From the NCBI RefSeq assembly GCF_026571515.1, contig NW_026863344.1, forward strand, positions 1 to 64,000: a stretch of 64,000 nucleotides of DNA. Direction: 5' to 3'. Below the pieces are notes generated by a model. It worked only from the letters and a program-made list of their open reading frames with translations, was not told the origin of the DNA and did no database searches. This document shows, in pieces, positions 14,788-49,313 of the stretch (the stretch's first letter is position 1; the number at the start of each line of letters is the position of its first letter). The position numbers and the translations under genes were made by a program. This DNA comes from Ruditapes philippinarum. Lineage: Eukaryota.

Positions 14788-15771
14788 ATATAGGGTTAAC
14801 GCACGTTTTTCCGTGTTATAACGTCTGCAGAGTCTCGAGGAACGGTTGGTGCCCGAGCCCGGTAGGGCGAGGGCTCCAACAGTTCTGAGGGACTCTGCAG
14901 ACTTTATAACACGAAATAAACGTGCGTTGACGCTATTATAGCATAAAATTTTAAAACAGATTCATGATGTATATTTAATACAAAACACAATACATTAAAT
15001 CCTTGTGCTTGGACGGTATTTATCCAATTCTACATGTTTTACGTATGCCTTTTATTTTTCCGGGGCCAACAACGAACCGAACGAAATTTTGAATTTAAAT
15101 TGATATTATAAAGCTTGACATTGGAGAGATATTATCTCAAGGAAAAAAACAACGTTACATTACTCTACCCAATACAAAACATGGCCCTCAGAAATTTTTA
15201 GAATGATATCAGATTGACAGTAGAAAAAAGATCAGTGACGTCATCAGAATCGGGTTTTTTTAAGCACACAAGTTTATAAATAAAAAATCAGGCACTAAAC
15301 ATTATTCTCTCAAAGAAATATAAAGCGCATTTATCAACATAAGCATCAATAAAACAACATGTTCTCATATTCATTTGTGTTATCTTGTTTTGTAAGTTAA
15401 TCGGAGGGTTAAACTGAATGCCAGTAATTTGTTTACATTGACAACTGTCCGTTTCTTAGAAAGGGCGACAACCAAGATTAGCAACGATGTTTATACGCCG
15501 TATTTCCGGCATAGTTACTTGAATGCTGCTCGCCGTATTTAATGCGATTGAGGCCCTCGAATCCATAATTTCAATATAACAAGAGCGCATGACTCTTTGG
15601 CAAACAGGCCAAATCGTCATTTAGTTTTTTTTTTTTTTTACTGGGCCCTGTATGTATTGCGCATAGGTGAAACCGGGCTATAACAAGAGCGCGTGACTAT
15701 GTTAACACATGGTTTTGGTCCCGTTATAACATGGGCAAAATAGGGGAAAATAGCCGATTTTATGCTATAAT
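14788..15771 (+). mobile_element. ~980 bp non-autonomous element with a terminal ~145 bp hairpin (Crypton-like architecture), copy 1
   Basis: Hairpin 14791-14935 with GC-rich apex CCCGAGCCCGGTAGGGCGAGGG; inner TTATAGCATAAAAT is inverted at the far end (ATTTTATGCTATAA); near-identical reverse-complement copy at 48330-49313. Superfamily assignment is inference. Confidence 0.85.
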
Positions 15772-16615
15772 ACCAGATAACATACGGGGTTTCTTCCAAA
15801 AGATACATTTGTGACAATTATTTGTAGCAGAATATTTACACATGTATATAATAAAATATAGTTCTTAGAAAAAACTATTTACATTTGACACGCGTGCGTT
15901 TTGCAAGGCCAAATCTTAAGAAAGATTGAGTGAGATACATTTAGTAAACGAACGGACAAAAAAAAACCCCAATGAATTAGGTTACATTTAAATGGCCATT
16001 GTATTATAAAATTCCTCTTATTTTAACTAGTATATTCGCAACCGTAAATTACAATGTAATAATGTTTCGTGGTCGACTAATATTTTATACAGGACGTATT
16101 TGTGCACGTGGTTGATGTTGGCAGTAAATATAGCAAAATATATACAAGCATGTACATTGTACATTATAATATAATGCACGTGTAACCTTGAATAATAAGA
16201 GAAGACATGCGTCTTTTAGAGTTCAGATACAAAATTATGTATTTTATTGAAAGTTTTTTTTTTGTTCTTGTTACCTACATAAACAGAATGTGGCTCTTTT
16301 GCAAGAGGAGTAATAAAGATGACTTGAATATTTTATAAAGCAAGAGTTACATCCCATTAACTAGTATTTCTATATATATTACGCACATGAATCATTCAGT
16401 TGACATATGATTATGCCCTGTATGGTCACATACGGGTACTTATAATACAAAGAAAGTCTGAACTTTTGCATTGTTATATCGAAAAATAGCCTAACTATCA
16501 CAGACATACATAAAAAACATTAAAATCCTCCTCCAAAATTTATTTTAAAAATAGGATACTCATCATAAGATGGTTTTTAGTTTTTTTTCTTTCGTTATAT
16601 GTAAACATAAGTATA

Positions 16616-16823
16616 TTTGAGCCGCGTCACGACAAAACCAACATAATGCGCATCCGCGCAGTCTGATCAGGATCCATGCTGTTCGCTTACAGACCCTTTA
16701 ACAAGTAGAGAAACTGATAGCGAACAGCATGGATCCTGATCAGACTGCGCGGATGCGCAGGCTGGTCTGGATCCATGCTGGTCGCAAACCCATTATGTTG
16801 GTTTTGTCGTGACGCGGCTTATT
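16616..16823. mobile_element. Palindromic MITE
   Basis: TIR GAGCCGCGTCACGACAAAACCAACATAATG and its reverse complement; inner inverted repeat GCGCATCCGCGCAGTCTGATCAGGATCCATGCTGTTCGCT. Confidence 0.85.
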
Positions 16824-17546
16824 TGTCGACGCAACCATGCACACTATATGTACATACACATGTACTTTTAAATGCATTTTTTTACTGTCAGATGTATTAT
16901 TCACTGGATGCTAACTCTGTGTGTTAAACAATATACCTATAAGTCTGGACATGTTCAGACAATAATGTGACGAACAGATAAGCGACTTTATTCAATCTAT
17001 CAACTTTAAGATTACACAAAAATGGGTCTCGCGATCATGTGAGCATACACCTTGTTATGATAAATTGAGAGGACATAAATGTAAGTGATTTATTTTGTAT
17101 CTTTTAAACATTTTAATACAAATTTGTTCTACAATTATACACCTGTTACCAGAGATGTAGATAACATAAATGTTATCTATGTCTCTGCTTTTACTTTATA
17201 CTTTCTGAATGTTTTTGTTACTTTGTTACTTCGTATATTCACATATTATGTTATATTATGTATGAGCAACAGTATGAATATATAAAACATCGTTTTCTTT
17301 ACATAACAGAGAAAAAATCATTGATATTCTAACTGAGGAACTATATTTCATTCTATCTTTTATATAGCAAGTGTAACTTTTTTTTCGTCAATTAATTTTA
17401 TATTGAAGAGCTGAAATGTGTTCCAAAAAGTTGTTTTTTAGTTAGCATACTAAGTATTTCACAACTGCATATACCACCTCGGACAGGATTTCAGTTACGC
17501 ACTTTACAATATTAATTGATATATTCTATTCTAGGAAGACTGTAAT

Positions 17547-17806
17547 TACGGTGACATAAAAGGGCCATCAGAAATATTTTTTATTTTCCACGTGCGCACG
17601 CGATAGCTACTATGTGCGCACGCGATATCTACCATGTGCGTACGCGATAGCTACTACTAGTACTTGCGCACGCGATAGCAATTACGTGCGCACGTAATGA
17701 TTGTCCAGACGCAGGGACTATCGCGTGCGCACGTAGTAGCTATTGCGTGCGCACGTAGTTGCTATCGCGTGCGCACATGATCTGACGATTCCTCTATGCC
17801 ACCGTA
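17547..17806. mobile_element. TA-flanked MITE with internal GTGCGCACGCGATAGCTACTA repeats in two orientations
   Basis: Termini TACGGTGACATA / TATGCCACCGTA; ~22 bp internal units switch orientation near 17710. Confidence 0.8.
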
Positions 17807-46860: not shown

Positions 46861-47074
46861 TGTGACGTTTTCATCTATAAATAAACAACTTCAAATTTAA
46901 TTATAACATCAAACATGCGTTAAATAAAAAGAAAGAACTGTTGCTATGCAAAATTAAGCGGTCTTACGTGTTTCATTGAATAGATGTTTCGAGACATTTC
47001 TATGTAAAAGCATTTACTCTTGAAATAATGTACATGTATATCTAACTAGAAGAGGACCATTACATTCTAAAAAA

Positions 47075-47290
47075 GAAGCAGAGGAAGAGGGAAAAGATGA
47101 GGAGAAGGAGTAAAAGGGCAATATGATGATGATGATGACGACGACGACAATGATGATGATGATGATGATGGTGGTGGTGGTGGTGGTGGTGAAGAGATAA
47201 AGAAGTGGGAGAATTAGGAGGAAATAAGGAGGAGGAGGAGAATGTGAAGAGCGAGAAGGGAGTAGAAGAATAAGAAGTGAAGTAGAGAAA
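47075..47290. repeat. Compound GAG/GAT/GAC/GGT microsatellite and purine-rich tract upstream of the NAGA-B start codon
   Basis: Direct observation. Confidence 0.85.
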
Positions 47291-48329
47291 ACACAAGAAC
47301 GTGCCTTGTTGGTTATAGGGGACAAATTGATCAATTTTATTGTAATCAACAAGGGTTTCCCTCATATCCTAGTTTTATTTTATATAGATACATTGAACGC
47401 AATTACAGAAGTGTAAAGACACGCCCAAGATGTGAGTTTTAACTGATTATTTAAAGTTTTTCCAATGACGTTCGATCTATCTAAAACCGAACATAGACTG
47501 CTAATATAACATTAGGTAACTTATCTGTAATATTTTTAAATAGTTTCCCTGTGGTTGAAGCTGGTGACCTACATTTATACCATTGAAAATTTGAGACATC
47601 ATTTCATATCATTATAAATGGTTGTAGAAAATCCCTCTTGACCATTATTAAAAGGGTAAACAGGAGAGTCATGCCAGTTTAGTGAAAAGAGGTTTGATTT
47701 TAATAGATAAACATGTAAATGGTAACAGATAACAAAAATACCTGAGACGGTCGTTTGATGATCACATTAGCTAACTTTATAGCACTTTTGTGGACTGGCA
47801 AAATGATCTGTAGCTAGTTAGGTACATGATAACAAGAAAATAATAGAAACCTTGGAATAAACGTTTATAAGCGTTTGTACATGTATACGCACTAATATCC
47901 TACATTTTAGTATAAACATTTAATGATAAAACTAATTCACTTACTTGTTTCAGGTCTCGGTTTATCATATGACATGTAGTCCTATATATATGTATTGTCA
48001 ATATTTTGATAAATATAAAGACGTTGGTCGTTTATATATAATAACAGATTTAAAGTTACACAAGCTAACTGTTTCTTTGATAAAGATCATTTGGAAGTAA
48101 AGTATACTCCGACGCATGTAACCGAAATAAAATATACAAAATATCTTCATTTCGATTCGAGATATTTGCTAGGGAATATGGTATTATATTACGCTTGTAG
48201 CGGATATTGTAAAATTTCACTTTGAGAAAATAATGATATACAGTGGGTAATGCAGTTAAAACATTTTAAAAAATCAAAATGATATCTATAGTGACGACAT
48301 AAGCATTTATAAACCATGCACTTTTTCTA

Positions 48330-49313
48330 ATTATAGCATAAAATCGGCTATTTTTCCCTATTTTGCCCATGTTATAACGGGACCAAAACCATGTGTTAAC
48401 ATAGTCACGCGCTCTTGTTATAGCCCGGTTTCACCTATGCGCAATACATACAGGGCCCAGTAAACAAACAAAAAAAATGACGATTTGGCCTGTTTGCCAA
48501 AGAGTCATGCGCTCTTGTTATATTGAAATTATGGATTCGAGGGCCTCAATCGCATTAAATACGGCGAGCAGCATTCAAGTAACTATGCCGGAAATACGGC
48601 GTATATACATCGCTGCTAATCTTGGTTGTCGCCCTTTCTAAGAAACGGACAGTTGTCAATGTAAACAAATTACTGGCATTCAGTTTAACCCTCCGATTAA
48701 CTTACAAAACAGGATAACACAAAATGAATATGAGAACATGTTGTTTTATTGATGCTTATGTTGATAAATGCTCTTTATATTTCTTTGAGAGAATAATGTT
48801 TAGTGCCTGATTTTTTTTATAAACTTGTGTGCTTGAAAAAACCCGATTCTGATGACGTGACTGATCTTTTTTCTACCGTCAATCTGAAATCATTCTAAGA
48901 ATTTCTGAGGGTCATGTTTTGTATTGGGAAGAGTAATGTAACGTTGTTGTTTTTTTTTCCTTGAGATAATATTTCTCCAATGTCAAGCTTTATAATATCA
49001 ATTAAAATTCAAAATTTCGTTCGGTTCGTTGTTGGCCCCGGAAAAATAAAACGTATACGTAAAACATGTAGAATTGGATAAATACCGTCCAAGCACAAGG
49101 ATTTAATGTATTGTGTTTTGTATTAAATATACATCATGAATCTGTTTTAAAATTTTATGCTATAATAGCGTCAACGCACGTTTATTTCGTGTTATAAAGT
49201 CTGCAGAGTCCCTCAGAACTGTTGGAGCCCTCGCCCTACCGGGCTCGGGGACCAACCGTTCCTCGGGACTCTGCAGACGTTATAACACGGAAAAACGTGC
49301 GTTAACCCTATAT
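48330..49313 (-). mobile_element. Copy 2 (inverted) of the ~980 bp hairpin element at 14788-15771
   Basis: The reverse complement aligns end to end with copy 1 with only scattered substitutions and homopolymer length changes; flanks differ. Confidence 0.88.

What the first reader, a model, noticed from the sequence alone, without database searches (positions are those of the whole stretch)
14788..49313. ~35 kb mirror-symmetric block: hairpin element > NAGA-A > [beta-tubulin] < NAGA-B < hairpin element; candidate flip-flop inversion
Seen: the same ~980 bp element lies upstream of both NAGA genes in the same gene-relative orientation, so the copies are inverted in the genome. Midpoints of the element pair (~32.05 kb), ATG pair (~32.5 kb), exon 5 pair (~32.9 kb) and stop pair (~32.3 kb) all fall in beta-tubulin intron 1. 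The element copies look far more similar (high 90s percent by eye) than the old gene duplication (~71% in exon 8) and their flanks do not align, so they were not simply co-duplicated. Inference: fold-back pairing could drive the conversion seen in the exons; a crossover between the elements would invert the whole block, and one in exon 5 would swap NAGA 3' halves and flip tubulin. Independent insertion of an abundant young family is the null.
Basis: partly seen in the sequence, partly recalled or inferred. Interest (0 to 1): 0.7.

Follow-up and report, generated by a model that had tools for sequence, protein, structure and literature searches.

The report
Twin Crypton insertions, no flip-flop
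The mirror-like block is an inverted pair of sugar-trimming enzyme genes that likely swap patches of sequence, each preceded by one of several hundred copies of a jumping element that likely landed separately, with no sign that the block flips; the element's self-pairing ends, which would suit a recombinase acting on one folded DNA strand, are the unusual part.

Summary
The layout is real; the flip-flop is not supported. The 982-bp element is a dispersed family (410 and 490 exact end matches). Its two copies are not sisters (AU p=0.0005). Both sites are empty in contigs that look like the other haplotype, and these run collinear with the window. So: two recent, separate insertions and one orientation in both haplotypes seen. 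The symmetry follows from an old inverted NAGA duplication. Gene conversion is supported: in exons 2 and 5 the paralogues differ no more than alleles do, also in the element-free haplotype, so the elements are not needed. The element is a non-autonomous Crypton-type transposon: 5-kb relatives with the same ends encode a DUF3504 tyrosine recombinase. It carries a long hairpin and an inner inverted copy of its own joined ends, about two letters short; a second recombinase family shows the same. The scan noted that design before on other DNA, this genome included. Unexplained: both copies sit 1.5-2.4 kb upstream in the same sense; cis phase is unproven.

The parts
14790..15771 (-). Element copy A: 982-bp non-autonomous Crypton-type element (strand given as in its recombinase-bearing relative)
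   Evidence: site empty in contig C12622, flanks rejoin exactly at T^A
14790..14936 (.). Long terminal hairpin of copy A (about 147 nt)
14935..14949 (+). Part of the inner site of copy A that mirrors the far end (15757-15771); with the adjoining hairpin arm it forms an inverted copy of the joined ends
18214..23502 (+). NAGA-A, GH27, 8 coding exons, 406 aa
18647..18821 (+). NAGA-A exon 2, homogenised with B exon 2 (46284-46110)
   Evidence: A-B 12, A-H 9, B-H 13 differences of 175
19261..19315 (+). Intron-2 acceptor tract shared with the window's B allele (45816-45870) but not with the other B allele
   Evidence: 47 of 55 A-B, 19 A-H, 18 B-H, ungapped
20857..21018 (+). NAGA-A exon 5, homogenised with B exon 5 (44856-44695)
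   Evidence: A-B 2, A-H 3, B-H 5 differences of 162; 2 of 30 synonymous sites
26533..33907 (-). Beta-tubulin gene, 9 exons, 445 aa; intron 1 at 30930-33850
41179..46860 (-). NAGA-B, GH27, 8 coding exons, 403 aa
   Evidence: likely second allele on contig C11926
48330..49311 (+). Element copy B, 99.6% identical to copies elsewhere, 98.0% to copy A
   Evidence: site empty in contig C11926
49152..49166 (-). Part of the inner site of copy B that mirrors the far end (48330-48344)

Best explanation
The block is an old inverted duplication of a NAGA-type gene around a beta-tubulin gene, whose exons 2 and 5 were likely homogenised by gene conversion, plus two copies of an abundant Crypton-type element that likely inserted recently and separately upstream of each gene. 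Shown: family size, non-sister copies, empty sites and same orientation in the second set of contigs, paralogue differences no larger than allele differences in exons 2 and 5, a tyrosine recombinase gene inside longer elements with the same ends, and an inner inverted copy of the joined ends. Inferred: that the second contigs are the other haplotype; that conversion (non-crossover repair between the paralogues) made the patches; that the recombinase moves the short element in trans; and, most speculative, that it cuts and joins a single strand folded so that both ends pair with the inner site, then integrates at T^A without a target duplication. The inverted pair could serve ordinary ectopic recombination at a low rate, like any such pair, but is not a maintained switch.
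For: 410 and 490 exact end matches in 1.41 Gb. Among 28 full-length copies A groups with L002/L009/L018 apart from B (UFboot 100); A is 13th of 27 for B; 83 of 378 pairs are at least as alike as A-B; A+B clade rejected, p-AU 0.0005. No element hit in 19 loci round the other GH27 matches, C11926 included; flanks rejoin in C12622 and C11926; both contigs are collinear across the sites. Among 131 elements placed from the first 100 hits of each end, 2 other inverted pairs lie 20 and 50 kb apart in the same sense, and their mates are unrelated too (84-91%). Synonymous divergence differs among exons, chi-square p=4e-6; sites with B=H against A: 22, 4, 21, 11, 0, 28, 27 in exons 1-7, while B-H differences are 6, 13, 8, 0, 5, 10, 4. 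Recombinase: PF00589 and PF12012 over cut-off; end sequence beside all 9 copies of that family examined. A follows the 3' end in 63 of 63 ends.
Against: Under uniform insertion the chance that a given gene pair has a copy within 3.5 kb of both start codons in the same sense is about 2e-6; only the many gene pairs and repeat families, or an untested liking for upstream regions, make it ordinary. All 6 inverted same-contig pairs in that sample have the hairpins outward, as here, which I cannot explain. The intron-2 tract is shared by A and the element-bearing B allele only, though at 85% identity it looks older than the insertions. Only two haplotypes were seen, neither contig spans the block, and no alternate copy of the A gene or the tubulin region was found. 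The 28 copies were the best matches to A among 40 scored of 1610 candidates. No recombinase copy seen is wholly intact. No compensatory change between end and inner site within the family (48 copies).
Confidence: 0.82

Rival explanations
1. Flip-flop by homologous recombination: the two elements act as inverted repeats, the 34.5-kb block inverts repeatedly, and fold-back pairing drives exon conversion.
For: 982 bp at 98% with a 195-bp exact run is enough substrate in principle; inversions between inverted repeats recur in humans (PMC3961182, passages).
Against: Elements absent from the second haplotype; same orientation at both ends and B-type exons 1-7 with B-type introns in C11926, so no chimera; copies not homogenised with each other; exons 2 and 5 homogenised without the elements.
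Confidence: 0.06
2. Recombinase-driven inversion: the Crypton recombinase treats the two inner sites, which face each other 34 kb apart, like a pair of FRT sites and flips the block.
For: Both copies keep an identical inner junction copy; a cognate recombinase family exists in this genome.
Against: No inverted form seen; hundreds of such sites would rearrange the genome if active as double-stranded DNA (inference); no wholly intact recombinase copy found.
Confidence: 0.03
3. The paired placement is not chance: the element prefers DNA just upstream of genes, or one strand relative to transcription or replication, so two similarly regulated paralogues each attract a copy in the same sense.
For: Per-pair chance about 2e-6 under uniform insertion, and 6 of 6 other inverted pairs share the polarity; neighbouring copies are usually unrelated (8 of 9 comparisons, covering 8 neighbour pairs, at 91% or below or ranked far down), so they reach the same area separately.
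Against: No annotation to test it; NAGA-A was hardly read in 4 RNA runs; three of the six pairs are under 2.2 kb apart and may come from insertion beside an older copy.
Confidence: 0.3
4. The element is a Helentron derivative (HINE/DINE-1 type) moved by rolling circle.
For: 15-bp subterminal inverted repeat, a 3' stem-loop, no target duplication and tandem copies resemble HINEs (PMC4067079, passages).
Against: The long partner with the same ends encodes a tyrosine recombinase; the hairpin is about 147 nt, not 5-10; the 3' flank starts with A in 63 of 63, not T. I did not search the genome for Rep-helicase genes with these ends.
Confidence: 0.04
5. Exons 2 and 5 are alike through selection or slow mutation, not conversion.
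For: They are among the most conserved at the protein level (dN 0.018 and 0); no outgroup species was available.
Against: Alleles differ normally there (13 of 175, 5 of 162); synonymous sites carry the signal; intron tracts next to exons 2 and 3 are shared.
Confidence: 0.08

Closest known systems
CryptonA DNA transposons and their non-autonomous derivatives (Kojima and Jurka 2011, PMC3212892; passages and section 8 read)
   Same: Single tyrosine recombinase matching DUF3504; short derivatives that share only the ends and outnumber the coding elements; animal host.
   Different: That paper found no terminal repeats in animal Cryptons; here there is a 147-nt hairpin and an inner inverted copy of the joined ends. 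Placement inside CryptonA by tree not tested.
Internal complementary region of DIRS retrotransposons (PMC8969392, passage read)
   Same: An inner stretch near the 3' end complementary to both termini, in a tyrosine-recombinase element without target duplication.
   Different: No reverse transcriptase frame in the 5.2-kb element; no long inverted terminal repeats; recombinase matches DUF3504, which DIRS recombinases did not (PMC3212892, passage).
Integron attC cassettes and CTX phage attP (recalled, no call)
   Same: Tyrosine recombinase acting on a folded single strand with mismatched or unpaired bases: the predicted mode here.
   Different: Bacterial; shown biochemically there, only inferred from sequence here.
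Recurrent inversions between inverted repeats, e.g. FLNA-EMD, HsInv0389 (PMC3961182, passages read)
   Same: Genes enclosed by inverted repeats; conversion between inverted paralogues.
   Different: There both orientations are genotyped and the repeats are large and shared (about 11 kb at over 99%, recalled); here they are 1-kb, recent, absent from one haplotype, and only one orientation was seen.
HINE/DINE-1 Helentron derivatives (PMC4067079, passages read)
   Same: Subterminal inverted repeat, 3' stem-loop, no target change.
   Different: Partner enzyme, hairpin size and target (see membership test).

Membership tests
Crypton (CryptonA-type) | Coding partner has a tyrosine recombinase matching DUF3504 | tested here: met
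   PF00589 32 bits and PF12012 31 bits, both over cut-off
Crypton (CryptonA-type) | Catalytic R-H-R-Y kept | tested here: inconclusive
   Motifs with R, HxxR and Y seen by eye in the frames; assignment recalled; no solved structure matched
Crypton (CryptonA-type) | No reverse transcriptase | tested here: met
   No frame long enough besides the recombinase among 30 frames of L055
Crypton (CryptonA-type) | Short element shares both ends with the coding element | tested here: met
   83% over the first 176 and last 284 nt, none of the middle; end sequence beside 9 of 9 recombinase copies examined, both true termini in 5
Crypton (CryptonA-type) | No target duplication; at most short direct repeats | tested here: inconclusive
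   Site A rejoins exactly at T^A; site B too diverged to read; a 2-nt AT repeat reading is not excluded
Crypton (CryptonA-type) | Recombinase groups with CryptonA in a tree | not tested
   No reference set fetched
DIRS retrotransposon | Internal region complementary to both termini | tested here: met
DIRS retrotransposon | Reverse transcriptase and RNase H | tested here: not met
   the one RT frame found (L052) is a nested insertion in a single copy
Helentron / HINE | 12-15-bp subterminal repeats, inner one 38-60 bp from the 3' end, 5-10-bp palindrome | tested here: not met
   15-bp repeat present, but about 150 nt in, with a 147-nt hairpin (definition)
Helentron / HINE | T on both sides of the insertion | tested here: not met
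   A follows 63 of 63 3' ends; T precedes 32 of 54 5' ends
Helentron / HINE | Rep-helicase partner with the same ends | tested here: inconclusive
   None among 7 long copies examined; no genome-wide search
Recurrent inversion between inverted repeats | Inverted repeats present on both haplotypes | tested here: not met
   Both sites empty in the likely alternate haplotype
Recurrent inversion between inverted repeats | Repeats homogenised with each other | tested here: not met
Recurrent inversion between inverted repeats | Both orientations found in the population | not testable with these tools
   Two haplotypes agree; short-read contigs cannot span a 1-kb repeat
Alpha-N-acetylgalactosaminidase (GH27) | GH27 domain and NAGA-type specificity loop | tested here: met
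   PF16499; exon 4 of A matches 1ktb best with the loop identical; that this loop sets specificity is recalled; activity not tested

The most novel reading that the evidence does not exclude
Animal Cryptons move as a folded single strand: the strand pairs both its ends with an inner mirror of the end-to-end junction, leaving about two unpaired bases, and the DUF3504 recombinase cuts and joins there, as integron integrases do on attC. This genome holds the short element, its cognate recombinase family and a second family with unrelated ends but the same design, so the test can be built from it. A recombinase-driven flip of the NAGA block is a further, much less likely step (about 0.03).
Probability: 0.35. 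Interest if true: 0.72.

Novelty: new variant of a known kind. Interest (0 to 1): 0.33.

Why it matters
As a flip-flop switch it does not hold up, and the locus is ordinary for a highly heterozygous mollusc: hemizygous insertions and conversion between inverted paralogues. Two things are of use. It is a clean case of exon-sized conversion tracts read against an allele control. And it ties a hairpin element with an inner junction copy to a recombinase gene in the same genome, with an exact empty site, which makes the unsolved Crypton transposition mechanism testable; if the single-strand model is right it would be an integron-like route in animals.

Tried and rejected
Helentron reading dropped after the recombinase partner appeared. 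Composite transposon (whole block moved between the two hairpin ends) rejected: flanks are collinear in the other contigs. Nested Crypton inside an unrelated short element rejected: the middle of the short element is absent from the long one and ends go with every copy examined. 'H shares A's letter' sites (8 and 2 in exons 2 and 5) were first read as conversion; they are no more frequent than H-only sites (5 and 3), so the signal is the lack of fixed paralogue differences; the Fisher p of 4e-7 there is post hoc (permutation p 0.002-0.01). A longest-run test on A against B alone was weak (p=0.02). DNA contigs of 4 runs on 44300-50900 could not test orientation or presence: repeats swamp the tables, and one contig enters element B by only 24 nt, under the tool's 31-nt bar; a head-to-tail joint in run X6 may be tandem copies or a circle. 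No alternate contig for 25000-41000 among 39 scored of 5038 candidates. No solved structure matched the recombinase. No relatives' genomes are held, and no search for NAGA orthologues in other species was run, so the outgroup test is open. Paper searches found nothing.
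Full report
Observation. The element runs 14790-15771 and 48330-49311; its flanks do not align. The four midpoints do fall in tubulin intron 1, but they are linked through similar gene lengths, scatter over 800 bp, and the intron fills 16.5% of the gap between the stop codons. 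The copies lie 2442 and 1469 bp from the start codons, and intron lengths differ between the genes. The symmetry is what an inverted duplication gives.

The element is a dispersed family. Exact 24- and 25-letter end motifs occur 410 and 490 times in 1.41 Gb, the reversed controls 0 times; a rough mark-recapture figure from the listed places is about 760 copies. Of 30 loci from the DNA search, 28 were full length; 2 were left out of the tree. Copy B is 99.6% identical to two copies on other contigs and 98.0% to A, which ranks 13th of 27; A shares 11 minority letters with L002 and 1 with B. Forcing A and B together is rejected (p-AU 0.0005). The sample is biased towards A, being its best hits among 40 scored of 1610 candidates, which works against this result, not for it.

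The other haplotype. The GH27 family search gave 58 matches on 9 contigs. Contig C11926 (9,994 bp) matches NAGA-B exons 1-7 at 93-100% and its introns and upstream DNA at about 74-92%. It has no element, and continues into the window's right flank, 49317-50736. Contig C12622 (66,705 bp) is collinear with window 4.3-16.6 kb and is empty at site A, where the flanks rejoin exactly at T^A. I read both as haplotigs; that is an inference from collinearity and divergence. Hemizygosity is reported as widespread in molluscs (search listing and abstract openings only); two coded runs carry a mollusc label. So each element is on one homologue only, and both ends of the block keep the window's orientation. 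Neither contig spans the block, and a primary contig can switch phase, so the two elements may not even be on one molecule.

How unusual is the pair? Among 131 elements placed from the first 100 hits of each end, 11 same-contig pairs were found: 5 direct, 6 inverted, two of these 20 and 50 kb apart. Uniform placement predicts about 10 inverted pairs 3-50 kb apart genome-wide for 760 copies. Against my reading: the chance for a given gene pair to get a copy within 3.5 kb of both start codons in the same sense is about 2e-6, and all 6 inverted pairs have their hairpins outward like this one. Many gene pairs and repeat families soften the first number; an insertion preference is possible and untested.

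Conversion. Synonymous difference between A and B is 0.07 in exon 5, 0.26 in exon 2 and 0.65-0.73 in exons 7-8 (chi-square p=4e-6). With the second B allele (H) as control, A-B / A-H / B-H differences are 12/9/13 in exon 2 and 2/3/5 in exon 5, against 25/26/6, 24/27/8, 11/11/0, 32/34/10 and 29/29/4 in exons 1, 3, 4, 6, 7 (exon 8 is not on C11926). Alleles differ normally in exons 2 and 5, so constraint or slow mutation does not explain it. About 17 intron letters after exon 2 are shared by all three, and 47 of 55 letters before exon 3 by A and the window's B only. H has no element yet has the homogenised exons, so the elements are not needed. H has B-type introns on both sides of exon 5, so it is not an exon-5 chimera relative to the window. 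Whether pairing was fold-back within one chromatid, or whether past crossovers were fixed, cannot be told without other species.

What the element is. Pairing the two end lists showed longer copies. Of 7 examined, two (L054, L055) are 98-99% alike over 5.2 kb and hold a frame matching Phage_integrase and DUF3504 over cut-off; one holds a nested LTR retrotransposon. A search with the inner part found 9 copies at 81-100%; end sequence lies beside all 9, both true termini in 5. All seen are broken by frameshifts, stops or insertions; C1337 is open through the catalytic region and then interrupted. The short element shares only the ends, at 83%. This fits a non-autonomous Crypton-type element (PMC3212892, passages and section 8; PMC13465315, passages).

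The ends. The reverse complement of a site about 150 nt inside the 3' end reads like the 3' end joined to the 5' end, lacking two letters at the join and with two fixed mismatches (37 of 48 copies; 5' part perfect in 34 of 48). The predicted single-strand fold pairs letters 1-15 with 823-837 and the 3' arm just beside them. A second recombinase family, 38% identical in protein and with unrelated ends, shows the same: 36 of 40 letters match with two dropped, 20-23 at other offsets (one copy tested). No compensatory changes were seen within family 1. This resembles the DIRS internal complementary region (PMC8969392, passage) and, from recall, integron attC. I did not find it described for Cryptons in searches (listings; passages only for the papers named); Repbase and the supplement of PMC3212892 were not seen. 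I had this reading, which then showed that the scan noted the design several times on other DNA, once in this genome; those notes are unchecked and are not counted as support. The wording 'two letters short' is taken from one of them.

Verdict. Observation confirmed; flip-flop not supported (about 0.09 for both inversion routes together); separate Crypton insertions beside a converting paralogue pair 0.82. The preference rival (0.3) can be true together with the best explanation. Interest 0.33, carried by the element's ends and not by the mirror.

Noticed in passing
window 8460-13585: A second inverted gene pair, head to head: two small heat-shock (Hsp20) genes, 69-73% alike in exons. The other haplotype C12622 has about 11 kb extra within this stretch.
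   Followed up: partly
G000 C14739 (L067-L070): Another pair of GH27 genes in opposite orientation, head to head, about 6 kb apart; not tested for conversion.
   Followed up: no
L018, L034, L058, L031, L032 (C2467, C1223, C876, C1379, C1498): Tandem or closely inverted copies of the element; mates are mostly about 90% alike, so new copies seem to land beside older ones; the target after the 3' end resembles the element's own 5' end.
   Followed up: partly
L112-L116 (C3083, C5203, C15080, C13927, C12006): Further tyrosine-recombinase families, 32-38% identical to the first, with open frames of 374-427 aa in some and long hairpins downstream; better candidates for an active enzyme.
   Followed up: partly
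window 16647-16819: A 170-bp palindromic repeat with very high RNA read depth from its many copies; also present near most other GH27 genes.
   Followed up: no
window 49630-50400: A GC-rich high-copy repeat with 21-nt units right of element B, absent from C11926.
   Followed up: no
L082 5835-8710 (C11926): The second NAGA-B allele has about 2.8 kb extra in intron 5.
   Followed up: no
window 5262-5691, 17589-17779, 43352-43465, 56080-57590: Palindromic elements with 21-22-nt tandem units.
   Followed up: no
window 46860-46880: NAGA-B has an out-of-frame ATG 13 nt before its start codon, and both genes have a splice acceptor just upstream, so an untranslated first exon is likely; the elements could lie in that intron or in the promoter (start site not found).
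   Followed up: partly
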